DNA from: a virus
Lineage: Duplodnaviria > Caudoviricetes
Direction: 5' to 3' (one strand)
IMG/VR virus record: IMGVR_UViG_3300008110_000042
Location: 2,204 to 66,203 of that record
DNA length: 64,000 nucleotides
Shown: piece after piece, positions 3,512 to 63,126 of the stretch
Layout: the number at the start of each line of letters is the position of its first letter
Numbering within the stretch: the first letter of the stretch is position 1
Translations under genes and position numbers: made by a program
The notes under the pieces: model-generated
The model's input: the letters and a program-made list of their open reading frames with translations, nothing else
Databases searched by the model: none
What the model was told of the DNA's origin: nothing

Positions 3512-3584
3512 TGGGTCGGGAGAGACTTGAACTCTCAACCAATTGATTAAAAGTCAACTGCTCTACCTATTGAGCTACCAACCC
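3512..3584 (-). tRNA. tRNA-Lys (UUU)
   Basis: GGGTTGG acceptor, TAGCTCAATAGGTAGAGC D-arm, anticodon arm GTTGA-CT-TTT-AA-TCAAT, T-loop GTTCAAG. Confidence 0.95.
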
Positions 3585-3587
3585 TAA

Positions 3588-3660
3588 TAGCACTGGTGGG
3601 AGTCGAACCCACACTTTATTGATTTTGAGTCAACTGTCTCTGCCTTTGGACTACAGTGCC
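3588..3660 (-). tRNA. tRNA-Leu (CAA) with short variable loop
   Basis: GGCACTG/CAGTGCT acceptor, anticodon arm GTTGA-CT-CAA-AA-TCAAT, T-loop GTTCGAC. Confidence 0.9.
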
Positions 3661-3744
3661 ATATAGATTCTATGTACCTTGGATGGGTCAAAGCCATCTG
3701 TATACATAGAATCCGTAATAAAAATGTACCAGTATTTCTTACAA

Positions 3745-3818
3745 CATCCCTGACAGGGATCGAACCTGTAGCCTATGACTTAGAAGGTCATTGCTCTATC
3801 CAGTTGAGCTACAGGGAT
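3745..3818 (-). tRNA. tRNA-Arg (UCU)
   Basis: ATCCCTG/CAGGGAT acceptor, anticodon arm ATGAC-CT-TCT-AA-GTCAT, GTTCGAT. Confidence 0.95.
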
Positions 3819-3823
3819 ATACA

Positions 3824-3899
3824 TGGAAGGGGCGGGAGTTGCACCCACATATTCACGCTTATAAGGCATGCGCTCTATCTACTTTTCAGCCACCCTTCC
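3824..3899 (-). tRNA. tRNA-Ile (UAU) with atypical T-loop
   Basis: GGAAGGG/CCCTTCC acceptor, anticodon arm CATGC-CT-TAT-AA-GCGTG, T-loop reads GTGCAAC. Confidence 0.85.
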
Positions 3900-5249: not shown

Positions 5250-5398
5250 TTAGTCTCCTGTAGTACTGTATCAGTAGCCCCAACCATTCGGCATGCAGCC
5301 GTAAGTGCTAGCGTTGGAGTTTCACCAGCACAGATTGGTTCCCATACGGGGTAATCATAGGTTAGAATCTGGGCCAACCATATATGACTGTCGTTCAT
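5246..5398 (-). CDS. hypothetical protein
   Basis: 3' part of the track ORF, starting at MNDSH. Confidence 0.45.
   Translation of the reverse strand: MNDSHIWLAQILTYDYPVWEPICAGETPTLALTAACRMVGATDTVLQETK
5271..5292 (-). promoter_or_regulatory. candidate phage RNAP promoter, copy 1
   Basis: GCCGAATGGTTGGGGCTACTGA; one of four co-oriented copies of a 22-bp motif. Confidence 0.7.
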
Positions 5399-7732: not shown

Positions 7733-8002
7733 TCAAGTACCGTACACAGAGACAGTCTGAACCCGTGCCATATAAGTAGCAACAGGTTGAATGTAATCAT
7801 CCGTAGTAACAATCACTACAAAGTCACTATGCCTTGCGTGTTCAATGTGAATGTGGAAGTTACCACCATCCGAATAGAAGTCACGCATGAGGATATAACT
7901 AATGGCCTCCACAATATCAGTATCATCCTTCTTATTCTCACCAAGGATGCACAGATTAAAGGGATTCTTACCATTCAAATCAGAGAGAGTAATGACTCGC
8001 AT
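7733..8002 (-). CDS. hypothetical protein
   Basis: ORF track; AGGAG RBS. Confidence 0.65.
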   Translation of the reverse strand: MRVITLSDLNGKNPFNLCILGENKKDDTDIVEAISYILMRDFYSDGGNFHIHIEHARHSDFVVIVTTDDYIQPVATYMARVQTVSVYGT

Positions 8003-8014
8003 TGTTATCTCCTA

Positions 8015-8107
8015 TTAAAGATTCTTATTCTCTTCAGCACACCAAAGAAGAACATACACACCAAAGATTCCAAGCAAAGCCACACCAATCAAAAGAAGTG
8101 TAGACAT
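8015..8107 (-). CDS. 30-aa single-pass membrane peptide
   Basis: Manual translation MSTLLLIGVALLGIFGVYVLLWCAEENKNL*. Confidence 0.5.
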   Translation of the reverse strand: MSTLLLIGVALLGIFGVYVLLWCAEENKNL

Positions 8108-8108
8108 G

Positions 8109-8357
8109 TCAAACCTTTCCCGGCATAGCCGGAGTGCTCATTCCTTCAAGATCCTTGCGGAGATTCTTGTTCTGTTCCATACAATCTTCTAGATCTTGAG
8201 CAAAGTAATTCATTGTCTGAAACATACACTCAAGAAGTCCGTGCTTATCTTCAGGAAGGGATTCCTTCAAACGAGAGTAGAAGATTTCCTGACAACCAAT
8301 GATCGACATAACAGTACGATCCTTAAAGTTAGATGAATGTCTAATTGCGATTGCCAT
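8109..8357 (-). CDS. hypothetical protein
   Basis: ORF track; AAAGGT RBS. Confidence 0.6.
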   Translation of the reverse strand: MAIAIRHSSNFKDRTVMSIIGCQEIFYSRLKESLPEDKHGLLECMFQTMNYFAQDLEDCMEQNKNLRKDLEGMSTPAMPGKV

Positions 8358-8372
8358 TGTATCATACCTTTC

Positions 8373-8654
8373 TTAGTTAGATTGGAGTTTCATAACTGCA
8401 CCCGAATCACCACGGGTAAGATGGCAAACCTTCACTTCCCGCTGCCTAACATAGACACCGGAGAGAGAACCACTGGCATAGAAGAACAAAGCATCTTCTC
8501 GCCATTCATTGTGCCAACCAACACAATCATCCTCACCAAAGAAGTCTTCATTCTTCAGCAAAGAAACAAGATGTGCTGGCGTAAAGGGAACGAAAGAAAC
8601 ACAAAGAACTTTGTAATCTTCCGAACCATCAAGACGAAACTCAACAAGTTGCAT
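8373..8654 (-). CDS. hypothetical protein
   Basis: ORF track; AAAGGT RBS. Confidence 0.6.
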   Translation of the reverse strand: MQLVEFRLDGSEDYKVLCVSFVPFTPAHLVSLLKNEDFFGEDDCVGWHNEWREDALFFYASGSLSGVYVRQREVKVCHLTRGDSGAVMKLQSN

Positions 8655-8844
8655 TGTCTTATACCTTTCTCGGCATTGCCGGATAGAGCATGTGGTTTAT
8701 GTCTATAGTTATTCCTTACGGAATAGTTGGAGTCCTCACACAAGATCCAACATCACAAGGTTTACCACAAACCCTAGTTACTTCCACAAACCCAAGGCAC
8801 ACAAAGAGGGTGCTACTTGTTGCACGGATAGTAACTATTCGACT

Positions 8845-9233
8845 GAAAGATATACCATAGGTTTCCCTACGATATACCGCTATGATAACACCGACAGGTT
8901 ACATAGTTAGCCTGTCTGCAAGTCCTATATAAACCATCAACACTAGGGACTAATCGTGTCGTGGGAAAGATATACCATAGGTTTCCCTATGATATATCAA
9001 CAGGCTTATGATTCAAATGCTAGTGACTACCTGTGGCGTATAGCAAGTATGTGCAATGTAACGCCCTGCACACTAGACGGTAGATTCGAGAGTCATTTAT
9101 TATAGAGTAGGATAAAGCGGTACTTACCATAAGAGATGCCTTTAGTGCATGTTATGGCAACACATAGCCATCCTACCCAGATTGTGTAAACTCTCAATCC
9201 AAAGGTATACCATAGGCTTCCCTAGGGTATACC
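8845..9233 (-). repeat. three copies of a ~33-nt hairpin repeat (about 8845-8878, 8965-8998, 9200-9233)
   Basis: Minus strand: G(G/A)TATA(T/C)C(G/A/C)TAGG-GAA(A/G)-CCTATGGTATA(T/C)C-TTT. Confidence 0.85.
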
Positions 9234-9239
9234 GAATAA

Positions 9240-9518
9240 TCAGTACCGACCACGAGCCATGCGATCCAAGTTAGGCATATGCCCATGAGTATCACTATGG
9301 CGTTCCTGCCACCTTCCAGACCGTTCTCGCGTAGACCATGTAGGAACATAGTCACGCATCCTGCGAACATCCTCAATCGTAGCATGAATACCACGATGTC
9401 GGTGAATGAACACCAAAGCATCAGATACTGATACTTTAGCAAACTTGGCAAGCCTAGGGGCAAGCGTAGCCGCATCGTTCACCGAACGGACATTCGCCAG
9501 ACAAACCGCTAGATTCAT
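9240..9518 (-). CDS. early hypothetical protein
   Basis: Start moved to MNLAV, 6 nt after GGAGGT; GC-rich codon usage. Confidence 0.6.
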   Translation of the reverse strand: MNLAVCLANVRSVNDAATLAPRLAKFAKVSVSDALVFIHRHRGIHATIEDVRRMRDYVPTWSTRERSGRWQERHSDTHGHMPNLDRMARGRY

Positions 9519-9533
9519 AGCCATACCTCCGTT

Positions 9534-9584
9534 GGGTATTCCATCGGATACCCTAGACCATCTAGGGTACCCGAAGGAATACCC
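9534..9584 (-). promoter_or_regulatory. long intergenic hairpin, candidate RNase III site
   Basis: ~24-bp stem with one G.U and one T-T on the minus strand, directly before an RBS, as with T7 early RNase III sites. Confidence 0.55.
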
Positions 9585-9609
9585 CGCGCCGTAGCACGGG
9601 GTAATCCAG

Positions 9610-9924
9610 TTAGCGACCGTCGAGCAAAGCATCCAACTTACCCTGCGCCGACCGCTTATTCACGACCTTGCCGATGTACATCGTACCGACAGCCTCCCAC
9701 ATGAGGCGCTTCGTTTCCTTATCCATGTGGGGAACCGAATCCATGACGATGTAGCAAGCGCACCGAACCTTGTTGCGGTAGTGCTTGTGATCATGGAAAC
9801 ATTCCATGCCGTACTTCACAACATCTGCGAACATATCCGGGCGAACTGCGCCGGAATTCCGCGTCTTATCAATGGCTTCCTTCACGGCGCCCCGGAGCAT
9901 CGTACCATTCGTAGTAGACATCAT
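9610..9924 (-). CDS. probable first early protein (hypothetical)
   Basis: Start moved to MMSTT after GAGGA. Confidence 0.65.
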   Translation of the reverse strand: MMSTTNGTMLRGAVKEAIDKTRNSGAVRPDMFADVVKYGMECFHDHKHYRNKVRCACYIVMDSVPHMDKETKRLMWEAVGTMYIGKVVNKRSAQGKLDALLDGR

Positions 9925-9960
9925 GTAATCCTCGCTAGATTGCGTACCGATACCCAACGC

Positions 9961-10014
9961 GGGTATCGGCTAGGATACACTAGGTTATCCCTAGTGTACC
10001 CTAGCCGATATCCC
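9961..10014 (-). promoter_or_regulatory. long hairpin upstream of the first early gene, candidate RNase III site
   Basis: ~24-bp stem GGGATATCGGCTAGGGTACACTAGG / CCTAGTGTATCCTAGCCGATACCC. Confidence 0.55.
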
Positions 10015-10129
10015 CTACGAAAGAACGCAGGGGATACCAGCCACGCGAATCAATCGCGGGATTATCCGGGCGAATATTGAGGAGGCGTGCGCCTTATCGG
10101 ATGTAGGCTACCCTTGAGGGTACTTTCCC

Positions 10130-10397
10130 GCCGTCTCCACGCATGGTGCTACCCATGAACAGAGCGGAACCTAGTCCATTTCCGTGACCCCATACTCATA
10201 CCTAGGCTAGTGAGCGTTGACAACGCAGACCTAGGTACCCCTTTGGGTACACCGTAGACTCACCGTTATACTCCGGGAGAGTAGCGTCTACGAGACTTTC
10301 ATACTAGACCGAGTGACAGCCTAGAGCGGATCGGTAGACTCCGCTATACACCGATGATCGCCAGACCTTACCGCTCTAAATACTGCGGGGAGGCGAC
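10130..10397 (-). ncRNA. candidate ~270-nt structured non-coding RNA
   Basis: 14-bp terminal helix, at least 6 internal hairpins, no ORF in the track, weak sigma70-like promoter just upstream. Confidence 0.55.
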
Positions 10398-10401
10398 CAC
10401 T

Positions 10402-10430
10402 ACACTACCGAACGCCGGAGCCGGATGGAA
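10402..10430 (-). promoter_or_regulatory. possible host sigma70-type early promoter
   Basis: TTCCAT-17 nt-TAGTGT; the predicted start coincides with the 5' end of the structured RNA; weak consensus. Confidence 0.3.
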
Positions 10431-10449
10431 TGCTAAAGCATCCCAGGGT

Positions 10450-10940
10450 TTGCGTCCGATAACATCGTGGGGGCGTTCCTAGATTATCGGACGATGCCTA
10501 CAGAGGTTATCGGACACGGGCTAGCAAGTCCGATAACTCTGGCCGGGGGTGACGGGGGGCGCGCAAGGGGGGATCAGGGGGGATACCCCTTCGCTAATTT
10601 TTGACCCCTAAGTCGATTTCTTACGGGAGCTGTGGTCCCTGCCTTGTTTCTAAGGGGGCTAGGATGCCTCAGGATTGATTATCTGATTGAGGTCCACCCT
10701 GCGGTCCCCTTGGGGTCCGGGGCCATCCCTCCGGTCAACTGGAGGGAAATCGACAAGGGATAAAACCGGGGGGTTAAACCCCGGAGTGCTTGTTCCTATT
10801 GGGTTATTATTGTTGTTGTAATTAACAAGGGATATACCTAGGTTAACCTAGGGGTCTTAGCTAAGACTATACACAACAATAATTAAAACTATAGGGGTTA
10901 ACAGCTAAGGGATAACCTAAGGTTATACTATGGTATATCT
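10450..10940. other. probable genome-end / terminal-repeat / packaging region
   Basis: Non-coding, between the last late gene and the first early gene; G-tracts followed by AATTTTT; perfect palindromes CCTAGGTTAACCTAGG and GTCTTAGCTAAGAC; promoter copy at its edge. Confidence 0.55.
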
Positions 10941-10962
10941 TCATTAGCCCCAACTATTCGGA
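10941..10962 (-). promoter_or_regulatory. candidate phage RNAP promoter, copy 2 (phiOR-like position)
   Basis: TCCGAATAGTTGGGGCTAATGA, just after the last late terminator. Confidence 0.7.
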
Positions 10963-10974
10963 ATACATGTCGAT

Positions 10975-11016
10975 AAAACAAATGGGGCTACCTAGGTTTC
11001 CCTAGGTAGCCCCCAT
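10975..11016 (-). terminator. intrinsic terminator after the giant gene
   Basis: GGGGCTACCTAGG-GAAA-CCTAGGTAGCCCC followed by ATTTGTTTT. Confidence 0.75.
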
Positions 11017-11019
11017 AGA

Positions 11020-14000
11020 TTACTCTAACAATTTGCCTAATTCTTCTGATACACCTCTCTGGTCGTAACCCATAGTCTTTTGTTTACCTAAGGCTTTTTC
11101 TGCTTGAGCTGTCTCCATCACATAGTTGCGTGGAGCTGGCTGATTAACATCCAGAGATATAGGACGGAACATAGTTCCGGCTTTCTTCTGGTATGGGTAA
11201 GGTTCTCTTTGAACCATATCCAAGTATTGTTGAATAGCATTCATTTCCTTAAATACCTGAGCATCTTCCAATACTCGTACTGGAATTGCTACTGGACTAC
11301 GATTAACTAGGGAGGTAGGGCCAAACAAGTTACTGGCTTCCTTAACAGCGTTTATTGAAAAGGGATCTTCAATAAGTCGCTGAGCACTTCGGAAGTCAGA
11401 CTCTAGTGTATTCATTCCTGCTCCAGCACCAGCTGGTAGGAAAGGTACACCATAGTACTTATAAGTACCACCTGTTAGACCAGCTACAGTGCTTACACCG
11501 GATTCAAGGAATCCGTTGTATAGACCAAGGAATGGAACTCTGGTTAATCCACGAAGAACATACTGGCTTGGTTGTTTATCAAGTTCTTCCATTATATCTT
11601 CTGTTTCACGACCAGCTAACCATTCTTTGAACAAGCCTACAATTGTATCCATAGCGGCATATAAGAATATACCACCAGCTAAATACTTAAGTGTGCTTCG
11701 TCCACCGTAATCAAGAATAACATTGTCCTGATAGGACTGTACCCAAGAAGTAAGAGCATACCACATTCTACCTAGGGCTGACTTAGAATCAAGAGAAGTC
11801 ATCTTGTTAAGTCCACCCAATTCAGATGTAGCTGTCTTTATAATTAGGTCTTCAACCATGAAGGCATAAGATGAAATAGCTGATTCCATTACATCCATAT
11901 CAATACCTTCTACTGGGTTGTTTCTAAGATCTTCATGGATATCCATTAGATCTAGAATGTTGACTCGGCCATCTCTATGGTTGGCTTTTTCCATTGCCCA
12001 CTTAAGATGTCGAATCTGTTCTTTAGTTGTCAAGCCATACTTTAAGAACAAGGCAGCTTCGTTTGCATCACCAAACTTTGCTGTATGTCTTGCAATACCA
12101 GCAAACTCCTTCCACAACTTGGCTTCAGCTTTGGCATCAGTAGCCGCAGCTTTCTTTAACTCAGCCAATTGGGAAGCAGTTGTAGTCTCAGTCAAGGCAT
12201 CAAATAAAGTCTCAACTCTACCCTTGCTAATATCCCTCCAGATCATTCTCTGGATTCGTTGCTTAGCTAGAGCGCGTGTACCATTTGTAATTGCCTGTAG
12301 AGAACCAATACTTTGCATCCATTTACCAGCTTCTTCCAAAGTTCTGGTTCCTTTTTCCAAAGCACCTACACCATTCTTTACATTGATTATAGTGTCGTTT
12401 ACACGAGTTCCAAATCTTGAATCAGATTTGAATGCACCATATCCAATCTCTCCCATATATCTATTAGCTAGATCTGTACGGAAGCTTTCAAGAATAAAAG
12501 TCATGTCACCAATATCAGACTCCAATAGCTTTCGCTTTGAAGCACGATAATCAGCTAGGACATAACGCATAGCCTTAATAATGTTTTTTGGTATTGTATA
12601 TAACTCAGGACTTTGCTTAGCCAACTCAGTCATGGTTTCAGTGAAAGCTGAAATACCATAACCAGCGGAGAACTTAAAGCGGATTGCTGCCAATCCAATT
12701 CTAGCTGAGTGTCCTGTCTCTGACTTTAGATATGGCAAGGTATCAGCATTAAACTGATACTCTTCATACAATCTATTAAGACCTTCTTCCAAACTATTCT
12801 TTGCTGTTCGTAGTTCAGCTTCTGACCAGTCCTGATCCTTTGACAGATTATCAAAGCTATCATAAGTTTTCTTACGAACATAATTAAATACATCTAGAAT
12901 AGTAATACCTGTCTTACCTAACATTCGGTCAAGTTCTCTCTGGAATGCTAGCTCAAAGTATCTACCCTTTAGGAAATAGAAGTAAGCCTCTGCAAGATTA
13001 GTTCTAAGGATAGCCTTAGTCTCGGGAGTACTAAACATCTCTTCTGGGGTTAATCCCTTGATTGGTAATATAGTCTTACCTTCTGGATCTAACTTAAAGA
13101 AAGGTTGGTTATAAATAGAGTTAAAGTCTTTAGTGCTGTTATAGGGATAACTCTTAGTTTTAAACTTAAGCATCTCTTCCATCTCAACACGAACTAGATT
13201 TCTACCATCTAGTTTCTTTCGCCACTTCTCTATGTACATCGCAGTGTCTCCTTGGATAGCTGCTATGTACTTGGTCTTATCATGTGGAGCAAGATCTGTA
13301 ACTCTTTCTGGAATACGATAAACAGAATATCTGTCATCAAATTCCAATACAAAGTATTTCTCTGGATTACTCTTTCTAAGGAGTTTTAGAATATCAGATT
13401 TCTTTCCAGAGATTCCAGACTTAGTGATATCGCTCTCATGTAACTTTTGTAAAGTATCTAAACTAAACATATTAGCTGCTTCTGAATAAGTGATGGTTCT
13501 ATCAGGAGCAAATATATTTAATGTCTGGTCTTTCTCGTTGTATTCAACATCGAGCCAGCCCAAGACAATCAATGTATTGATGTCTAGTTTATCGTCCTTT
13601 AACTTTCTATTTGTGCGAACTTCTACTAGTTTATCCAGTAGATTACTACGAGCAGCCCTGTCTCTCATTATAGATTCAAGACCTTCGTGATCAACTTGCG
13701 TTGGTGCAAAGACATCAGGAGATATTGGATTACCATCTGCATCTACAGTTAACAAACGACCTGTGTTTGTTTCTAGATCCAGAATGTTTTTGTTTGCCAA
13801 TCTAGCAGCTTTTAATAATAGAGATAGTTGTTTTGTTATTGGCTCAGCATACAATGCTGGAATACCAAGAGCAACTATATCTGCTTTATTAGGCTGTTTG
13901 TTTGTAAACAAAGTTTCATAAGTATATATATCAAGTTGTGCTTTTTGATCATTAGTCATGCGTGGCATGATTGTATTGATTTTAGCATACTCTTTAAATA

Positions 14001-17000
14001 TACGGGTAATCAATCTACCTTCTTCACCTCTGAGTTGCATTGCTGTCTTAAAGGCAGTCTTTCCAGCACCTACCAAATGTCCTGTTTGAGTCTTACGATC
14101 ATCAAAGAAACGAGACACAAACGAAAGTAGTGGAGCAACACTTCGCAGAGTATCACCTTGTCGTGATCCATTCTGTGTTGCATTCACACTCTTGTTCATT
14201 AAGTTTTCCCACCATGTTCGACTATCTCTTTGGTTTCCACCAAAGATTGCTCCAACAAGATTGTTAACTCTTAGTAAACGAGAAGTACCACTCTCTACAT
14301 TATTGATTGCATTCTCAATAACTTTTTCATTTGGTAACTCAGGCTCGGGTGCTGTTGGTTCTGGTGGAATCTCAGCTTCTTTAATATCTTTAATAACAGC
14401 ATCTGTTGATGGAGGACCGGGAATCTTTGCGTCTATTCCGGCTTCATCAATCAAGGATTTAACCTTTTTTGTTTTGCCGTTTAAACGATAATTACCTGCT
14501 TCATCTACTTTAGTAAATACAATATCTTCAGGCAATACAGGAATTACAAATTCTGGTTTGCCTTCAATTTGAATTTCTTTTGCTGCTTTATCTAAGAGCT
14601 GACGATAGGTAAGTGGTTTCTTTCCTGCTGGTCCTTCAGTTACTTTTACTCGTAATGAATCAGACACATACAATCTATCAACCGCTTGCCAGAACTTTGT
14701 CAGTATATCTTCACCAAGCACACGCTTATTTGCATCAGCAATAAACTGATTTACATTTACATAGTGTGACCAAAGCATTTCAAACATTGGGGTGACAGTC
14801 TCTGAGCCATCTGGTTCAACCTTTGATTCCCAATATTTCTTTAGGAACTTTCGGAGGAATCCAGAATCCATTCCAGAAACTCTTAGCAACTCAATGTCTT
14901 CATTAAACTTGCGTTCAATCTTTTCTGCTTTAGTTGTTTCAACAACATCAGTTGGAATTTCTTTGACAGTTGCAACTATCTTCTCAATAGTTGGTAGTCT
15001 AGTTTCTCCAGTTGGTACTGTTGTTGTTTTAGATTTTGGTTTTCTTGGTACTCTAATTTTTTTAGTAGCAACAGGTAAACCTTCTTTTTTCTGTTTAGGT
15101 GCATCTATTCTTGGTCTGTTAATAACATTTATAACAGGGGTATTATCAGCAGCCTTTGCAATCTCTAACATCTTAGGTTGTTCAGGCACAGCATCAATTA
15201 CAGTTGCTCCTAACACTGGCAGATCTGAAGTTGTTAAAGGAATAACAGAACCATCTTTAAATACTAAAGCATCAGAACCAATTCTACTTGCTGTCTTTTT
15301 TACACTTTCAAGTTTTACTGGATCTGCTGAAAGTATATCAGCTGACTCAACATCCATCTTCAATGGACGCTTTGGAGTAAAGCCGATAGCTTCTTTCTTA
15401 CCAGAGTTTGTTCCATTGAGAATAGCATCAACTTGTTTAGCAGGACGAATAGTTTGTTCTGGCTTTTTACCAGTAATAGTTTCTTCTGTTGCTCTAAATA
15501 GTGATGCTTCTGTTTCTGGAATAGTAGGAGTTGCTAGTGACTCTGGATTCTTATTCTTTAAGCTTTCAGCTAAAGCTTGAGTCTGTCGTATACGCGAACC
15601 AGCTTCAACAATTGTTCTTTGTTTCGTAACTGGTTGAACTCTTGTAGTATTTTTAATTTCCTTATTTGCTTTTTCTGCATTCTTTCTTGATTCTTCAATA
15701 GCTTTCTTTTTATCATTATCTAGTTCACGAAGCTTTTGTCCAGCTTCATTTAGAGTTGATTCAAGTAGTTTATGCTTAGCAACTTCTTCAGTAATAAAAA
15801 GTTTTAGGGTGTTTAGTCTAGCAGTAATAGCAGCTCTCTTAATAGCTTTTCCAAACAGCTTTTCAGATTGTGCTGCTACTTTAGAGTCTGTACCTAAAGC
15901 AAGTTTTGCTTTTAATAAAGATACAGCTTCAGGCGTTAACCAACTACCATTAGATGCTTCATGCCACTCTAAAGCTTTTTGTAAATAGACATCACTAAGT
16001 TCTGCTTTACCTAGTTTCTTTTTCTCATACAAATTAGCTAGTCTATTAGTTTGTACTGGCTTTTCATTTGTGCCTTCATCAGAATCAACATTGAGTCTTC
16101 CAGCTCTTTGGTCTTTTCTTTCTTGATCTTTAGTTGCATTCTTACCAGTGGTTGTTAAATAAGCCATTAGATTATTAATAGTAGCAATATCACCATTAGC
16201 AACTGCTAGTTCTAAAGATGCTGTTCTCTTTTCACTTACCTGAATGACAGTATAAGCGTCTATTAAATCTGGACGAAGAGTTATAACTTTAATCAAAGCT
16301 TCTTCTAAGTTATCAGTAGTCACTACTTCTGAGAGTTCACTAGCAGCTTTTTCTTCTGACTTTAACTTTGTTGCTGAAGTAGACTCAGCTGCTTTCTTTC
16401 TTTTTGACTTTGTTGTAGGTTTGTTTATTACCCACTTACCAGATCCTTTGGTTTGCTTTACTTGATCGGTATTAATCATATCATATAAAGTACCAATGAA
16501 TTCTTCAGGTGATTTACTACCAGTCAAAATTTTATTTACAATAGCTTCATCTATATTAGCAGCCGCTACTTTAACTAATAGACCTATGTCAACTTTGGTA
16601 TCTTTTAACATTACAATATTAGCTAAAGCATCTTCTTTATTTTGCCATCTTACAATATCTTCAGCTGGAGTATTATCTCCATCTAGTTTATTGAATAATG
16701 GTAGACCGTCTTTTAGAATAGCCATTCGCATTTCATCTGTAATAGGTAGATAAGGCTGTTTACCTATGCCATTAACTTCTTGTAGTTTTACAGAGGTTTT
16801 ATATTTCTTGCCAATTTTGTTAGCAACTTTTACCATTATGTTTTCATAGAACTCTAGATAACCAGTAGCACCAAACAACATAGTCCCACCTTCTTCAGAT
16901 GGTTTTATAACAAAAGGTTCAAATACATTATCACGACTACTATCTGTAATCTCTTTAGCTTTTGCTTTACCTACATAATTATGCAGTTCATTTGCAGAAA

Positions 17001-20000
17001 TATCATCGAAGTTTCGTTTATTACCAGATTTTTCATCAATAGTTATATCGTAAGAACCAAGATAATTTTTAGTTACAAAAATTTCAGAAACATTATCAAT
17101 TATAATTTTGTTATAACGATCAGCTTGTTGTTGTCCTGTAGTCCAAGCAACACCATCAAAGCCATGCTCTACAGCATACTTTAACATGCGTTTGAATATC
17201 AAACCACCCCATGCTTCTGATGATTTAAAAGGAGCTAAAGGTAATAGATCTGGATCTATAAGATTAAGACCTTCATTTAATGCTGTTAAGTCATCTAACT
17301 CTCTTGCTAAAGTACTTTCATATGTGAATAAAAAGTCTAATTCCTCAATATGCTGTTTATATGGTTTTACATTAGGTAAAACATCAGATGGCAATTTAGA
17401 CATTAATTGCTGCTTTAAAAAGTATTTAACTAAAACAAGAGCATCTGCTAAGTCTTTAGGTTCTTTTATTAGTTTTAATTCTAAATTCATTCTACTTATT
17501 ATATTGTCAACACTACTACTACGATAGCCGTATGCAAACGAAGAAGAATATTTAAATAAAGGATGTTGACTTATACTAATAATGTTATTGCCCATACTAT
17601 AAACAATATCTTTTGCTTTTGTCATTCCAGTAAGATCAAAATTACCTTCTGGAAATATAGCACCTACTCCAACTTCTTGTGAGCCATCAGCTATATCATA
17701 TAAAATATGTGCAGTAGAATCATTAAATGCATAGTTATTGTCCATAAGATCAAAAGTTTTATTACGAATAACAATATAAACTGGTTGTGTTATATCAACT
17801 CCATACGCATCAATAGATTGTTTAGATTTCCACGCTTTTTTAATTTCATCAGCATTAAAAGAAAGCTCAAACAATATATTATACTTATCTAGTTGTTGTG
17901 TTTTAGTTGAAAATAATTTATCAGGTAGTTCAGTATTAGAAAGTTTTACTTCATTATCCATAATTTTTTTTATATCAGGAACAATTGTATCTAATCTTTC
18001 ACTAACTTCTTTTATTCTCTGTTCGTTGTTAACAAACTCTTCAGGTTTTTCTGGTGTATCTTTAGGACGATAACCTTTTTCGTTTCCTTTTTGATGCCAA
18101 TCGCTTTGAAATTCTTCACCAAATAAAACTTTAAAGTTTTCTGGAGTATATCTAGTATTAGCACGACCATGTACAACAACATTTGTTACTGGAGTGTTAT
18201 TACCATGCCAGCCTCCTTCCCAATGTGTCATACCACTTTGTAATTCAATATCAGGAAATCTAATTAAGAATTCTCTTTGATCTTCACCATTAGGTAAAAC
18301 TAAAGTTTCGTGTTGATATTTATCCCAGATAGTATGACCACCGGGTAGTGGCTTTTCTATTGTTTCTCTATAAGGTGCAAATAAATCTAAGATAGCACTC
18401 TGAATATTTTCTGGTAATTTATCTAATTCGGTTTTAAGATATTCTTCAACTTGATTAAAAACAGTACTATAAACCTGAGCGCGTAATTCTTTATTTCTGA
18501 AATAAGGATATAATTCAGGTTGTTCTCTCATTAATCTTTCTTTAGGTAAATTATTGCCCCATAAAAGTGATTCATTAGCTTTAATTACATTTTCAGCAGT
18601 TACTTTACCATATTTAGATTCAGGTATTACTTCTTCAGGATAGAAAGTTGTAGCTTGCTCTTTACTAGTTACAAATTCAATATTATCTTTACTTGAATTA
18701 ATTAGATTACCATCTTTTAATTTTACATATTCCATACCACCAAAGACTTCTGACTTTTCAATATTAGCTGCAATAAACTCTTTAATGGCTGCAATAAGAA
18801 GCGGCCAATTATCTTTATCTGTTATTTCTGCTTGTTTTTCTAAAGCGTATTCTCCTAGCTTTTTAAAAAACAAAGGATCTCTAAGTGTTTTAGAAACAGG
18901 AATAACGCTAGAAGGAAATACAATTGTTTTGTAAGTTTTACCGCCGCTACTAGTAACTGAATCAGTTATTGGAAGTGTATCTGTTTTAATAAAATCGTGT
19001 ACTAAAACTCTTGAAACATTTTTCGTAGAATGAACTATTGTTGTTTCCGAGCCTTTAATAACTTCTTCTATTTTAACAGGTTTAATAATAGAAATAAGTG
19101 TATTTAAATCTACTTTAGCATCTTCAGGTAATGCATCCATATATTCTTTTAGACCAGTCCATTCAATCTCTTCTTGTTTAATACTACCCTTAACCAACAA
19201 AGCAGCAAGTTGTTGCTTTGTCATTGTTCTTTGTGGATTAGTCTTTATTGTTTCAACAAGACTAGAATAGAATGTAGACAACATCAATTCTTTTTGCGGT
19301 GTTGTGTTAAACGAAATATCAAATAGTTTATTTGAAGGATCATCAAAGCCTAAAATAAAAGCGGCTCTTCCAAGAAGACCAGTAACACTAGCCATTTCAC
19401 TTAAACCATTTTTCTCTAATCTATCTCTAACCAAATCTAAAATAGAATTATTAAAGTATTCATTTGAGCTAACAGTCTGTAGCAAGTTTGCTCTGTCTTC
19501 AACAGACATAAGATCTTTATTAGTAAAAGAAACAAAATCATACTTAGGATCTAATACAGGTTTTGCTTTACTACCAAAGACAGTCTTATCAAATAGAGGA
19601 TCTGAAGCAACTTCAAACAAACGCTTACCTGTAGTAACTAAGTAAGCATAGTCATACTTACCTTCAGGAATCTTTTCTTTCTTTGCATATTGTTCAAACA
19701 CATCAAGGATCTTAAGTGAGCGTTCTTCATAAGTAGCTGGAATAGCTCCCATGTTTCTTCGCTCAGCGCTGATTGAGAAGAACTGTTCTTTAAAGTATTT
19801 TAGTCTTTCTTCGGTAGTCATGTTAATAAACTTATCGTAGTCTTTAGCTGACTCAAAGAAATACATTACTTTATAAAGAAGAGAGTTAGTCTGTGTCTTT
19901 TTATATTCAGAGTAAGCTTCAACAAACATATTAAAATGTTTGCCTATTCTACCACCAGAATCAATTGCAGATAGCCCTTGGCTTTTAACTATAGTCATAG

Positions 20001-23000
20001 CAGCTATCATAGCTGGATCAAAGTATTGACCATTCATCAAGAATTCATACTCACCTCTAGTAAGCATGTACTTGTCATTGATTCCTTTTTTATGGATTAT
20101 TGTAGCAAACTCACGCGCATTAGTAGCAAACTTAGTATAGCCACCAGTTAACTGTGCAGATCTTGCAAAGACTTCATTTAACTCATGGACAGATAATGTT
20201 TGATCTGCCATTTGTTTATTGATGTTTGTAATTTCTTTTACAAGAGCACTAGCAGTATCATAAAACTCAGAACTATTTAAAATCCTAGTTGCGACTAGAA
20301 CTGCTTTCTGAATATCTAATAAAATAGATTTAGTCCAAGAGACATCTATTGGATTCATCTGTTGTATTATTGTTTCAGCTTCTGTTAACAATACTTTTGA
20401 AAAAGTCTGTACAAAAAATTCTTCAGCATTTATTAAATGATAAGTACTTAAGAATCTTTCGTTTAACATAGGATCATCTAGCTTTAAGGTAGATTTAAAA
20501 CCCTTGTCTTGAACAAGAGCCATACCAAAAGATGAAACAGCTTTGTTGTATAACTTAAGATTTGATAAATAGATATTACCTGTAGCTCTTGATTTAAAAT
20601 AAGCGTGACCTATCTCATGTAGGATAGATCTAATGCGCTGATTTGATCTTGCTTTTGGAGATAGGAAATAACCAAAGTTTGCATTAAGTGTAATCTTCTT
20701 CTTATCATATTCCCATTTAGCAACAGTAGAAGCATCGCTTACTATTGACTTTGTTCCAGTAACTTCATCTGTCTTTACTGTTGTCATTTTTTCTACACCA
20801 AACTCAAGGAATGGAACATCACTAAAGTTTAGATGAACAACAGAAGCAAATAAAAGAATACGATCTTCGCTTGTAAGCATGGAGTTAGTTACAAGACTGT
20901 CAACATAGTCTGCAAACTTTTTAGCGGAGTCTTTGCTACCTGAAACAATAGAAACAAAAGCATTTGATACATCTGCTTTGTTATCATTTAGATATTTAAT
21001 CTTAGCTACTCTATCTTTATCAACCTTTGCAATATTAATTGCGTTTCTAATTTGCATTGATAGAGCGTTAAAAATAGTTTCTTTGCGTTCCTTAGCTCCA
21101 GCAATATCTCTTACGGCATTCTCAGTTGTTTCACTGATTTCACCAGTAAGCTTTGCTTCTAAAATAGCAGCATCAACAACATCAGAAGCTTCTGTTGGAA
21201 TACCAGCTTTTACAGTCGCTTCTCTTTCTGGAGAGGTTGCAGCAGATTCAATAGCTTCAAGTAACTTATGAGCTGCTTCTTCTGCCGCTACTTTTCTTTC
21301 AGCTGCTGGCTTTGCTGTGTCTCTTGCTTCCTTAATTAGATCAGGAATATTACGCTGAGATCTTTTTTTTAATCCTTCTAGTTCTGCCTTAAGTGCCTTA
21401 TAACGATCTGAACCTAGACGCTTACGAAGTCTAAAAAACTCTCCCTTGCGTTGTCTTTCTAGTTCTTCATAGACACGCTCTCGTTCTTTTGGTAGACCAA
21501 CAGCTTCTGTTTCTACCTTCTTGGCATCTTCTAGAAACTTCTTACCAGCAAACAAGACACGCATTTTATCAGATACTGACATTTGATCAAAGACTTCACC
21601 AGACTCAATAAATCGCTCAGAGCCTTCATTATTAGTACGACGAGCAAACTCAGTCATTACTTCATGTATATTTCTAAAGACACGATTAGGCGCTGCTCTA
21701 GCAATATATTCTGCTGTAGTTTCATTCTCATATCGGCGTGTACCTACATCTTCTGGTGTTGATCTAGCTACTTCAGGAGAATTCAAAGCTTCTCTTGTTT
21801 CAACACGATCAACTCTTGCTTCAGTTTCGGTTGCCATTTTTTCTGCAGTAATATCAGTATTTTCAATTACTGCTTCTTTAGCTAGCTTTTCTGGAACTGG
21901 AGCATCAATGATTGGCTTTTCAGGCTTCTTCATAAGACCAGAAATATTATCAATTGTATTACCTAGTGGAGTTCCTTCAAGGGTAAGACGCTTATCCAAT
22001 GAGTTTCTAAGCCCACGACCAGCATCAATCTCTACGCCTTGCACTCTGTTTCTAACAGCACCAACACCACTGCGTAACAATCCACCACCAAGACCAAACA
22101 CACCACCAAACGCCAAGCCTTCTTCTAATGCTGTTGTAGCAATCAAAGAAGCATTATAATCAGTGAGTGCGTATGGGTTGGCGTATAGAGTTGCAGCACC
22201 AAAGGCAATTTCTCTTTGCTGTCTAGCATACTCAGCTAAGCCACCTTGTACTGCTCCGAATGTAAACGCAGCAGCAGCTCCACGCAGCAAACCAAAGTTA
22301 CTTACATAACTAGGCATAATGCCAAGTGGTAGTTTATAAAGTGTTTCAGTTGTGTAAGCAGTTGCCCTTAAAGCCTTACCAGCAACAGATGCAGAATCAT
22401 AGACACGCTTTAAGCGCATAAACAAAGATGTCCCACCTAAAGCAGTGGCTGTTGCTTCTGCTGCCATAACACCACCAGCTAAACCAGCGGCGGTTCCTAC
22501 TCCCGGAACAAGAGATCCAATGGCTGTTGTAATACCAGCTAATGCCAACTCAGCACCAATACTTGGAATAGTGTCAGGGCTATTAATCATACCTCCAACA
22601 AGACCATCTCGGAATAAACGAACATAGTCTAGTGTTGTTGGTTTGTATGTTCCAATTCTTTTTTGAATGTCAGTAACATTTAGCTGATGCATGATACGAA
22701 TCATTGCATGGTCAGCATTTGGAGAATCACTTACAAAAGAAGAATCAATACCATTTTCTAATAGATATTGATTTACAATTGGATTTGAAAACTTACTTGA
22801 AAACCAATTATTTGGTTCAAAGTTTGGGTCTTCTCTTGCCATAATCTTTTCAATATCTTTTGTATCTCCAGCTAATTCTGTATCAGAGAATGAACTAGTA
22901 ATTCCAAACAAATCTTGAGCGACAAATTGATCGAACCAGTTAAAGCCTAGCTTTTCATCAGCTTTGCTTTGTGCTTCTGCATACAAAAGCTTTGTTGAAA

Positions 23001-52881: not shown

Positions 52882-53641
52882 TAGTATCTCCTAGGGTTTG
52901 TTCTTCAGTAGCCCCAACTATTGGGCAATATAGTTTTACCTGTTTAGTAGCCTTGTCGTACTCACCATCCCGTAGGATGCGGACAGATCGGGCCATAGCC
53001 AAACAGTAATCATAATCATATTTACCGCCATCTGCGGTCTTAGCTTGGTCATAAGCTGCCAGTACAGCAGCCGACCAGTTCCGGGGGTGGACATACTTAA
53101 GCCACTTCTCAGCCTTAGCTGGCCCCCACTTCCAGATACCGGGGATATTATCGGTCGTATCCCCGGTAATCCACTGCTTGTGGAAGTTATAGTCAGCAGT
53201 GTAATCATCTACCATATCTGGTGTATGTTCCTTGTCAGGATTCCAGTGCCACCCCGGTACAGACTTGAGATCTTTATCAATGGTAACAGCTATCCCCTTA
53301 CCAGAAGAAGCCATAAGTCCCATAATATCATCAGCCTCTAGCCTTGGTACTGTCAGAATGTCATGCTCTTTGATAAGCTCAAGAGCGTAGTCCATGCAAT
53401 CTGGGGTCTGTTTACGCACATCACGATGTGCCTTATAGGGTTCCCAGAAGTCCCGTCTGTAGTTATCCTTGCGGCTACAAGACATGGCAATGTAGACCTT
53501 CTTCATTCCCATTGGTGTCCAAGCCTTAACATCATGGGATAGCCGTTCTTCTAGATACTCAACACCTTCTTGATCAGCCCAGAAAGCAGCACGGTAACAC
53601 AAGATATCTCCATCTAGAACAGCAACATCAGGTCTTTCCAT
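52871..53641 (-). CDS. 5'-3' exonuclease (gp6-like)
   Basis: LDGD, YKAHR, LEADD, DKDL and GDTTDNIPG. Confidence 0.92.
   Translation of the reverse strand: MERPDVAVLDGDILCYRAAFWADQEGVEYLEERLSHDVKAWTPMGMKKVYIAMSCSRKDNYRRDFWEPYKAHRDVRKQTPDCMDYALELIKEHDILTVPRLEADDIMGLMASSGKGIAVTIDKDLKSVPGWHWNPDKEHTPDMVDDYTADYNFHKQWITGDTTDNIPGIWKWGPAKAEKWLKYVHPRNWSAAVLAAYDQAKTADGGKYDYDYCLAMARSVRILRDGEYDKATKQVKLYCPIVGATEEQTLGDTNGY
52905..52926 (-). promoter_or_regulatory. candidate phage RNAP promoter, copy 3
   Basis: GCCCAATAGTTGGGGCTACTGA, in the 3' end of the exonuclease gene ahead of dut/nrdJ/structural genes. Confidence 0.7.
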
Positions 53642-63104: not shown

Positions 63105-63126
63105 TCTGTAGCCCCAACCATAGGGC
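63105..63126 (-). promoter_or_regulatory. candidate phage RNAP promoter, copy 4
   Basis: GCCCTATGGTTGGGGCTACAGA; intergenic, ahead of the SSB/replication block. Confidence 0.7.

What the first reader, a model, noticed from the sequence alone, without database searches (positions are those of the whole stretch)
10130..10397. Candidate novel ~270-nt multi-helix ncRNA as the first early transcript
Seen on the minus strand: the 5' end GTCGCCTCCCCGCA pairs with the 3' end TGCGTGGAGACGGC (12 of 14 positions, including one G.U). It encloses TAGAGCGG/CCGCTCTA (inner ATCGGT/ACCGAT), CGTAGAC/GTCTACG (inner TACTC/GAGTA), GTACCC-AAAG-GGGTAC, CCTAGG/CCTAGG (inner GCGTT/AACGC), CGGAA/TTCCG and CATGG/CCATG. 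A linker GGTCTAGT could pseudoknot with ACTAGGTT. A TTCCAT-17-TAGTGT element places +1 at the helix start. I do not recognise it as tmRNA, RNase P, 6S or a ribozyme.
Basis: partly seen in the sequence, partly recalled or inferred. Interest (0 to 1): 0.8.

Follow-up and report, generated by a model that had tools for sequence, protein, structure and literature searches.

The report
Structured early leader RNA in phage
A folded non-coding stretch just ahead of the first early gene of an uncultured freshwater T7-like phage looks like a real structured RNA, but it is one lineage-specific piece of a longer leader, not the self-contained 270-base RNA first proposed.

Summary
The window is a 66-kb freshwater T7-like podophage. 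It has its own RNA polymerase and a T7-type terminase, and all genes lie on the minus strand. The stretch 10130-10397 lies in the 1.1-kb non-coding gap between the giant virion gene and the first early gene.

The proposed overall fold is poor: -71.2 kcal/mol against an MFE of -102.1, z only -2.2.

Only one independent relative carries the element (L011).
- **Closing helix:** four L011 substitutions break it.
- **Proposed -10 hexamer:** it is lost in L011.
- **Proposed +1:** an RNA-library contig runs 43 nt upstream of it.

The same comparison supports local minus-strand hairpins. There are 4 compensatory double changes against a null mean of 0.78 (1 of 200 simulations reached 4). A 111-nt core has 0 differences, while 15 of 37 four-fold sites differ in the adjacent gene.

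Contigs from 3 of 3 RNA libraries laid cover the element but not the flanking genes. More distant relatives have no such module or unrelated structured leaders. There is no Rfam match, no terminator before gene 1 and no second copy.

Best reading (about 0.55): a lineage-specific structured module of the early-operon leader RNA. Function unknown.

The parts
10354..10400 (-). P1: local 5' hairpin (10400-10392 with 10362-10354; inner pairs 10390-10385 with 10374-10366).
   Evidence: RNAalifold of window + L011. L011 changes 10397/10357 G.U>C-G and 10386/10373 G-C>A-U are two-sided. 10396/10358 U-A>U.G and 10394/10360 G-C>G.U are one-sided and keep the pair. No real breaks (the two 'lost' pairs listed there are an alignment-end gap, since 10400 and 10399 are unchanged).
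10236..10346 (-). Invariant core.
   Evidence: 0 of 111 positions differ between window and L011, so these helices cannot be tested by covariation. RNA-library contigs X16 (10069-10313) and X17 (10069-10298) cover most of it.
10198..10238 (-).
   Evidence: Pairing probability 1.0 and 0.9. 10235/10201 changes C-G>U-A in L011. The apical hairpin is replaced in L011 by a different one with a 10-nt insertion, and the whole domain still folds the same way (-18.6 against -18.0 kcal/mol).
10135..10164 (-). It is incompatible with the closing helix.
   Evidence: 10164/10135 C-G>G.U (two-sided) and 10161/10138 U.G>U-A in L011.
10070..10134 (-). Conserved linker with the small hairpin UACCC/GGGUA (10122-10109) and a TTATCGGA site (10094-10101, + strand). 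RNA-library contigs of two studies stop at 10069.
   Evidence: 2 of 60 positions differ from L011. One search gives the motif. One search shows the contig ends: X16 and X17 both end at 10069 with no loose end, while DNA contig X4 runs on. This is only a weak hint of an RNA end.
9947..10041 (-). Three long hairpins directly before the ribosome-binding site of gene 1. They are candidate double-strand-specific (RNase III-type) processing sites that would separate the leader from the mRNA.
   Evidence: Inverted repeats I1 and I14. They are kept in L011 and L004, with one-sided wobble changes and one two-sided change. The loop motif CCCCTGCGTTCTTTC is exact in L002, L004 and L011. Cleavage is inferred, not shown.
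9610..9921 (-). First early gene (103 aa, no family match). The element is its upstream leader.
   Evidence: ORF list. Four homologues at 92-72% identity. The start is at 9921 because L011 has TAG at the upstream ATG. No PHROG match. 74 of 312 nt and 15 of 37 four-fold sites differ from L011.
10402..10430 (-). Not supported.
   Evidence: Not reported by the sigma-70 scan. The -10 changes to GGGTGT in L011. An RNA-library contig crosses it.
10455..10536 (.). Four TTATCGGA sites in both orientations, present in all relatives. With the fifth site at 10094-10101 they bracket the variable leader module. Probably a protein-binding DNA motif.
   Evidence: 8 sites in the window against 1.06 expected, 0 of 100 shuffles reach 8, and 5 of the 8 lie here. 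The sites are conserved in L002, L004 and L005.
10941..10962 (-). One of four copies of a GTTGGGGCTA-core motif, a candidate promoter for the phage's own RNA polymerase. It lies upstream of the whole non-coding region and could drive RNA across it late in infection.
Evidence: Four exact copies at 5275, 10945, 52909 and 63109, all on the minus strand. The motif is invariant in six relatives. The phage encodes a T7-type RNA polymerase.

Best explanation
The stretch is the lineage-specific, structured upstream part of the long non-coding leader RNA of the phage's early operon. It is not a gene of its own.

The leader is read on the minus strand and starts somewhere upstream of 10400. The start could be a host-polymerase promoter near the TTATCGGA sites, and/or the phage-polymerase promoter-like motif at 10962-10941 read across genome junctions.

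It folds into a row of local hairpins: P1, an invariant 111-nt core, the H4 domain and a 3' hairpin. It then continues without a terminator through three long hairpins into gene 1.

By analogy with T7, whose early precursor is cut by RNase III, I infer that the long hairpins are processing sites. Cutting there would release the leader as a stable RNA. What the module does once made is unknown: it may stabilise or time the early mRNA in cis, or act on a host factor.

Shown: position, minus-strand pairing constraints, strong conservation against one relative, and presence in RNA libraries. Inferred: promoter, processing and function.
For: **Context.**
- T7-type RNA polymerase and T7-type terminase; all long ORFs lie on the minus strand.
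- The gap 9922-11019 has no ORF of 30 aa or more on the minus strand.
- No terminator-like site lies between 10766 and gene 1 on the minus strand.

**Conservation against L011** (85% identity over 1333 nt).
- 0 of 111 positions differ in 10346-10236, and 5 of 205 in 10129-9925.
- 74 of 312 positions differ in gene 1, and 15 of 37 four-fold sites.

**Pairing.**
- RNAalifold on the two sequences gives 85 pairs on the minus strand: 4 changed on both sides, 4 on one side, 0 broken. The + strand gives 1, 1 and 0.
- When the same 25 substitutions are relocated at random, the mean is 0.78 double changes, and 1 of 200 simulations reaches 4.
- The consensus has 8 G.U pairs in the window's own sequence (7 in both sequences), which only work on the minus strand.

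**RNA.** Contigs of 3 of 3 RNA libraries laid (three studies) cover 10044-10440. None covers 9600-10043 or 10825-11100.

**Family pattern.**
- The whole leader 9925-10452 folds with z -6.8, 0 of 100 shuffles as good.
- The unrelated leaders of L005 and L004 fold with z -4.3 and -4.1.
- The hairpins before gene 1 are kept in L004.

Against: - Only one independent relative carries the element. L011 and the X18 contigs are the same haplotype, so all covariation rests on 25 substitutions.
- Only the count of double changes stands out. The sum of one- and two-sided kept pairs (8) is reached by 46.5% of the simulations.
- When the structure is taken from the window sequence alone, 7 changed pairs are kept and 6 are broken on the minus strand, against 3 and 8 on the + strand. 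Much of the single-sequence fold, especially 10170-10070 and the long-range pairs, is therefore not supported.
- The core helices have no substitutions and cannot be tested.
- The stretch itself folds only marginally better than shuffles (z -2.0 to -2.2).
- The perfect 111-nt identity could come from recent recombination rather than selection.
- The RNA evidence is from assembled contigs of low depth (2-4). Contigs cannot show strand, ends or level, and DNA carry-over in the libraries is not excluded. I had one laying call and could not lay a silent control stretch.
- No promoter was found.
- L002 has a leader of about 125 nt without any such module, so the module is dispensable for the family.
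Confidence: 0.55

Rival explanations
1. A self-contained ncRNA of about 270 nt: own promoter at 10430-10402, +1 at 10397, a closing helix joining 10397-10384 to 10143-10130, and a 3' end at 10130.
For: The closing helix pairs at 12 of 14 positions and has probability 0.81 when the 268 nt are folded alone. RNA-library contigs cover the region.
Against: Four L011 substitutions (10397, 10392/10135, 10389/10138, 10386) break closing-helix pairs, and none is compensated. The closing helix has probability 0.0 in its natural context. The full proposed structure is 31 kcal/mol above the MFE. The -10 is lost in L011. An RNA-library contig spans 10231-10440. There is no terminator at or after 10130. Conservation runs on to 9921.
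Confidence: 0.07
2. The conserved feature works as DNA, not RNA. It would be a terminus-proximal cis element (packaging or concatemer processing, replication, or a regulated early promoter region) bound by a protein that recognises the TTATCGGA sites bracketing it.
For: Five of eight TTATCGGA sites in the window lie at 10094-10536, on both sides of the element. Contig ends of three relatives cluster at about 10518-10562, so a physical genome end may be about 120-160 nt upstream. T7-type terminases cut at defined ends; that the ends carry direct repeats comes from the abstract of PMC10438801 seen in the search listing. The + strand also folds somewhat better than shuffles (z -1.75).
Against: The kept pairs include G.U pairs and G.U-preserving changes that work on one strand only. 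The + strand shows 1 double change against 4. The module is absent from L002 and replaced in L004 and L005, while the TTATCGGA sites and the upstream region are kept. That is unexpected for a core packaging or replication signal. No promoter-like site was found on the minus strand. The region is GC-rich (0.52), unlike typical origins (recalled).
Confidence: 0.15
3. There is no function of its own. The stretch is mosaic filler recently exchanged between two lineages, and the hairpins come from the local excess of CTAG/CCTAGG palindromes.
For: z is only -2.0 to -2.2. CTAG is threefold enriched. The element is restricted to two lineages. A block of perfect identity beside 24%-divergent coding sequence is what a recent exchange would give. 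L002 lacks the module.
Against: Identity is not one uniform block. A divergent island at 10235-10130 (11 substitutions and 11 inserted letters in 106 nt) lies between two near-identical blocks. Its changes, and those in 10400-10347, fall into compensatory pairs more often than relocated substitutions do (1 of 200). RNA-library contigs from three studies cover just this part of the 1.5-kb stretch laid.
Confidence: 0.13
4. The leader module acts on the transcribing host RNA polymerase in cis, as a put-type processive antiterminator. This would let the polymerase read through the many hairpins of the roughly 10-kb early region to reach the phage polymerase gene.
For: Position directly downstream of wherever the early promoter lies, with no terminator before gene 1. 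Different relatives carry different structured leaders, as expected if the RNA must fit a particular host polymerase. That last point is inference, and put RNA biology is recalled from memory.
Against: There is no direct evidence. The element is several times longer than the two-stem put RNAs (recalled). The downstream hairpins are not scored as terminators, because none has 5 T in 8 after the stem. L002 has no long leader.
Confidence: 0.07

Closest known systems
5' leader of the phage T7 early (class I) transcript, cut off at the first RNase III site before gene 0.3
   Same: Same place in a T7-type genome: between the genome end or early promoters and the first early gene. Non-coding, several hundred nt, and followed by long hairpins directly before the first gene. 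The phage has a T7-type RNA polymerase and terminase. RNase III processing of the T7 early precursor at five sites is stated in PMC4858673 (introduction passage). The layout of the T7 left end is recalled.
   Different: No sequence similarity to any GenBank phage (terminase below 40% identity to all). No sigma-70-type promoters were found. The module shows pairing constraints and a 111-nt invariant core of its own, which is not known for the T7 leader (recalled). Processing is not shown here.
Hairpin-punctuated non-coding RNA array at 8700-9233 of the same genome
   Same: Same early region, same strand and the same style: GC-rich hairpins rich in CCTAGG/GGTATACC. L011 also shares parts of that array.
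   Different: No sequence or covariance-model similarity. The model of this element finds only itself and L011. This element lies upstream of the first gene rather than after the second.
HK022 put RNAs (cis-acting antiterminator RNAs in phage early leaders); recalled, no model available in the tools
   Same: Structured RNA in the leader of phage early transcripts made by the host polymerase.
   Different: put RNAs are two stem-loops of about 70 nt in a lambdoid phage (recalled). There is no similarity test and no functional evidence here.
Large phage-associated structured RNAs in Rfam (for example GOLLD, ROOL) and tmRNA, RNase P, 6S
   Same: Multi-helix non-coding RNA in a phage genome that also carries tRNA genes (4 tRNAs at 3512-3899).
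   Different: No match to any of the 4227 Rfam families at gathering score, or at E<=10 within 10130-10397.

Membership tests
Any Rfam family (tmRNA, RNase P, 6S, ribozymes, riboswitches, GOLLD/ROOL and others) | Covariance-model score at or above the family's gathering score | tested here: not met
   the whole window gives only 4 tRNAs; at E<=10 over 9800-10700 there are 6 weak hits, none inside 10130-10397, and all are far below gathering (best 21 bits against 80).
T7-type early-operon leader RNA | Lies between the genome end or early promoters and the first early gene, on the coding strand, with no terminator in between | tested here: met
   Gene order and strand. No terminator-like site on the minus strand between 10766 and 9921. 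Contig ends of relatives cluster at about 10518-10562.
T7-type early-operon leader RNA | Transcribed from host-polymerase early promoters just upstream | tested here: inconclusive
No sigma-70-like site on the minus strand in 10560-9925. The host and its promoter type are unknown.
T7-type early-operon leader RNA | Separated from the first mRNA by an RNase III cleavage hairpin | not testable with these tools
   Long hairpins with arms of 16-24 nt exist at 10041-9947 and are conserved in L011 and L004. Cleavage needs an enzyme assay or end mapping.
Stand-alone small RNA gene | Own promoter and own 3' end (terminator or processing site) bounding the conserved, structured unit | tested here: not met
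   The promoter is not supported and there is no terminator. Conservation and RNA-library contigs extend beyond both proposed ends. The closing helix is broken in L011.
Conserved structured RNA class (comparative definition) | Homologues in several lineages with statistically supported covariation | tested here: inconclusive
   One relative only. 4 double changes against a null mean of 0.78 (1 of 200). The core is invariant and untestable. Searches of IMG/VR, JGI metagenomes and GTDB genomes gave no further carriers.
Miniature mobile insertion (MITE-like) | Several copies in the genome or in relatives, with terminal inverted repeats | tested here: not met
   The covariance model and nhmmer find one copy in the window and one in L011 only. 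The flanking TTATCGGA sites are in inverted orientation, but they belong to a family-wide array that is also present where the module is absent.

The most novel reading that the evidence does not exclude
The first RNA made from the first DNA to enter the cell is a swappable, lineage-specific structured RNA cassette. It would be released by processing and act on the host, for example as a decoy for a defence or RNA-decay factor, or as a modifier of the host RNA polymerase. Relatives would carry non-homologous cassettes at the same slot, between the TTATCGGA sites and the conserved CCCCTGCGTTCTTTC hairpin.
Probability: 0.12. Interest if true: 0.7.

Novelty: new member of a known kind. Interest (0 to 1): 0.35.

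Why it matters
If the reading holds, this uncultured freshwater T7-like phage spends several hundred bases of the earliest-transcribed DNA on structured RNA rather than protein. Its relatives fill the same slot with different structured RNAs. That points to an RNA-level layer of early infection control, or of host takeover, in a phage group with no cultured member. It also gives a concrete object for RNA-seq and probing: the leader 10452-9925, with a 111-nt invariant core. As it stands it is a modest result: one more unclassified structured leader, seen in two lineages, with no function assigned.

Tried and rejected
**Searches for more carriers of the element**
- GenBank phages, sensitive blastn of 9900-11020: no match.
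- IMG/VR exact patterns from the element: 0 hits.
- IMG/VR with the gene-1 protein and with a five-protein alignment: no relative.
- GTDB genome contigs by pattern and by protein alignment: none.
- JGI metagenome pattern scan: 3 loci, of which only L011 is a relative. L012 and L013 share nothing beyond the 19-mer.
- nhmmer and a covariance model of window + L011 found no homologue or second copy in the window, L002, L004, L005, L012, L013 or L014.
- Four gene-1 homologues at 92-72% identity exist.

**Readings considered and dropped**
- tmRNA, RNase P, 6S, ribozyme or riboswitch: no Rfam hit.
- Small protein gene: no minus-strand ORF of 30 aa or more in 9958-11019.
- Tandem host promoters as in T7 A1-A3: none found.
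- Mobile insertion: single copy.

**RNA laying**
- I laid 3 of the 5 RNA runs listed and 1 DNA run.
- The shared contig end at 10069 in X16 and X17 may be a real RNA end. It may equally be an assembly-graph break at the border of a module shared among co-occurring relatives. I could not separate the two.
- Parts of the stretch without RNA-library cover (9600-10043, 10441-10572, 10825-11100) are no evidence of silence.
- A contig in X4 joins 10036 to 10580. Both sides share GGTATCCCC, so it may be a relative without the module or an alignment effect.

**Other**
- A sub-threshold Pfam hit in the giant protein (YopH_N, 18.5 bits against a cut-off of 25) is treated as noise.
- No supplementary files were consulted, and no claim here depends on them.
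- The PMC10438801 abstract was seen only in the search listing. PMC4858673 was read as passages only.

Full report
**What the window is**

The window is nearly all of a 66,203-base virus record, rated 98% complete and classed linear. All long ORFs lie on the minus strand. The record encodes:
- a T7-type single-subunit RNA polymerase (PF00940, 276 bits);
- primase/helicase, DNA polymerase, portal, capsid and tail proteins;
- a T7-type large terminase, below 40% identity to every GenBank phage;
- a 4154-aa ORF at 11020-23484.

Read in the direction of transcription, the giant gene is followed by a non-coding gap (11019-9922, GC 0.52 against about 0.40 elsewhere). Small early genes, four tRNAs and the polymerase gene follow. 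The contig is therefore a permutation of a T7-like map whose natural ends fall in this gap. The runs that hold the sequence are freshwater and lake metagenomes.

**Check of the observation**

The closing helix pairs at 12 of 14 positions and all the others are perfect. The support beyond that is thin.
- The 268 nt fold to -102.1 kcal/mol. Shuffles average -91.1 +/- 4.9 (z -2.24; 5 of 200 as good). The + strand gives z -1.75. 10100-10400 gives z -2.0 (5 of 100).
- Only H4 is robust in the ensemble. The closing helix drops from 0.81 to 0.0 when the natural flanks are included.
- CTAG is threefold enriched in the non-coding region (27 against 9.4). This makes self-complementary matches, including the proposed pseudoknot, easy to find.
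- By my count the proposed promoter matches the sigma-70 consensus at 5 of 12 positions. The scan does not list it.
- No Rfam family matches.

**Relatives**

The C-terminus of the giant protein found six IMG/VR loci at 65-81% identity.
- Their DNA aligns with the window from the giant gene's stop to about 10452-10504. This includes a promoter-like motif, a conserved hairpin, C-rich tracts and three to four TTATCGGAC-type sites. It does not extend across 10130-10397.
- L002 goes from the last TTATCGGAC site to its first gene in about 125 nt.
- L004 and L005 have about 420 and 377 nt of unrelated GC-rich sequence. These also fold far better than shuffles (z -4.1 and -4.3).
- L004 shares only 10092-9924 with the window.
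- The motif CCCCTGCGTTCTTTC, the top of the first hairpin before gene 1, is exact in L002, L004 and L011.

The slot between the TTATCGGA sites and that hairpin therefore holds different modules in different relatives.

One metagenome contig, L011, carries the window's module, at 85% identity over 1333 nt. All other searches for carriers were empty.

**What L011 shows**

Differences are very unevenly spread:

| Window stretch | Differing columns |
|---|---|
| 10518-10453 | 16 of 66 |
| 10452-10401 | 10 of 52 |
| 10400-10347 | 14 of 54 |
| 10346-10236 | 0 of 111 |
| 10235-10130 | 22 (11 substitutions, 11 inserted letters) against 106 window positions |
| 10129-10070 | 2 of 60 |
| 10069-9925 | 3 of 145 |

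In gene 1, directly downstream, 74 of 312 nt and 15 of 37 four-fold sites differ. Most of the non-coding leader is thus far better kept than neutral sites. This reflects either selection or recent exchange.

- Four of them break closing-helix pairs (10397/10130, 10392/10135, 10389/10138, 10386/10141), and none is compensated.
- One breaks H5 and one breaks the inner H4 hairpin.
- H1 outer, H3 and the pseudoknot each only tolerate one-sided changes.

They fit a row of local hairpins instead.
- **P1 (10400-10354):** two double changes and two wobble-preserving single changes.
- **H4 stem:** one double change (10235/10201, C-G to U-A). Its cap is replaced by a different hairpin carrying a 10-nt insertion.
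- **3' hairpin (10164-10135):** one double and one single change.

In all, 85 consensus pairs show 4 double changes, 4 single changes and 0 broken on the minus strand. The + strand shows 1, 1 and 0. Relocating the same 25 substitutions at random gives a mean of 0.78 double changes, and 1 of 200 simulations reaches 4.

Results against this reading:
- The total of kept changed pairs (8) is ordinary; 46.5% of simulations reach it.
- With a structure taken from the window alone, 7 changed pairs are kept and 6 are broken, against 3 and 8 on the + strand.
- Only P1, H4 and the 3' hairpin are really supported. The core helices are untested, and all of this rests on one relative.

**RNA**

Five RNA libraries hold small parts of 9600-11100. 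I laid three of them and one DNA run.
- X16 has one contig at 10069-10313. X17 has one at 10069-10298. These are two studies with 1 and 2 mismatches.
- X18 has L011-type contigs at 10044-10215 and 10231-10440. The loose end of the first matches L011's insertion. X18 also has contigs at 10573-10824.
- None covers gene 1 or the end of the giant gene.

This fits an abundant RNA from the leader. It also shows RNA, or carried-over DNA, 43 nt upstream of the proposed +1.

Contigs cannot give strand, ends or level. The shared stop at 10069 is a weak hint of an RNA end. It lies at the junction before a domain in which 10065-10057 pairs with the ribosome-binding region. It could equally be an assembly break.

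The region upstream of 10573 may be transcribed from the GTTGGGGCTA-core motif at 10962-10941. That motif is one of four exact minus-strand copies, is invariant in relatives and is plausibly the phage polymerase's promoter (lead from note e1-6206147).

**Interpretation**

The element is best read as the lineage-specific, structured upstream module of the early-operon leader RNA. There is no terminator before gene 1. The three long hairpins at 10041-9947, kept in L011 and L004, are the obvious candidates for RNase III-type processing, as in T7 (PMC4858673, introduction passage; the T7 left-end layout is recalled). Promoter, processing and function are inferred.

Rivals are set out in their own section:
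- a DNA-level terminus-proximal element tied to the TTATCGGA sites;
- mosaic filler without function;
- a put-like antiterminator;

**Comparison and novelty**

The element works like a phage early leader. It belongs to no described RNA family. It is seen in two close lineages only, and its function is open. I rate it a new member of a known kind (structured leaders of phage early operons), of moderate interest. The swappable-cassette pattern across relatives is the most interesting lead.

Noticed in passing
window 10518-10562 (with L001, L003, L011): Contig ends of three independent relatives cluster here. L001 and L003 stop coming from the giant gene, and L011 starts here going into the early genes. 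The spot is next to four C5-C6 tracts. It is either the physical genome end or a tract that assemblers fail on.
   Followed up: partly
window 10094-10101, 10455-10462, 10484-10491, 10507-10514, 10529-10536: TTATCGGA occurs 8 times in the window against 1.06 expected. Five of the copies lie here in both orientations, bracket the variable leader module and are conserved in relatives. This is probably a protein-binding DNA motif.
   Followed up: partly
window 10018-10032; L002 8594-8608; L004 8671-8685; L011 496-510: CCCCTGCGTTCTTTC, the top of the first hairpin before gene 1, is exact in all relatives that reach this point (one mismatch in L005), whatever leader module precedes it.
   Followed up: partly
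window 9926-10065: In the minimum-energy fold, 10065-10057 pairs with the Shine-Dalgarno region of gene 1 (about 9937-9929) and encloses the three long hairpins. This could sequester the ribosome-binding site.
   Followed up: no
window 10036/10580 (run X4): One DNA contig at higher depth (13.4) joins 10036 to 10580 and skips 543 nt, including the element. Both sides share GGTATCCCC. It may be a co-occurring relative without the module, or an alignment effect.
   Followed up: no
window 5275-5284, 10945-10954, 52909-52918, 63109-63118 (minus strand): Four exact copies of GTTGGGGCTA within a longer motif. The copy at 10941-10962 is invariant in six relatives. It is a likely promoter for the phage's own T7-type RNA polymerase.
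   Followed up: partly
window 8601-11020: CTAG is threefold over-represented (27 against 9.4 expected). 9 of the window's 19 CCTAGG sites lie in 8001-12000, mostly inside hairpin stems.
   Followed up: no
window 9921-9924: Gene 1 most likely starts at the ATG at 9921, not 9924. L011 has TAG in place of the upstream ATG.
   Followed up: yes
window 10766-10784 and 10984-11013 (minus strand): Two terminator-like hairpins follow the giant gene. The second one (CCGGGGTTTAACCCCCCGG followed by a T-run) is conserved in all six relatives.
   Followed up: no
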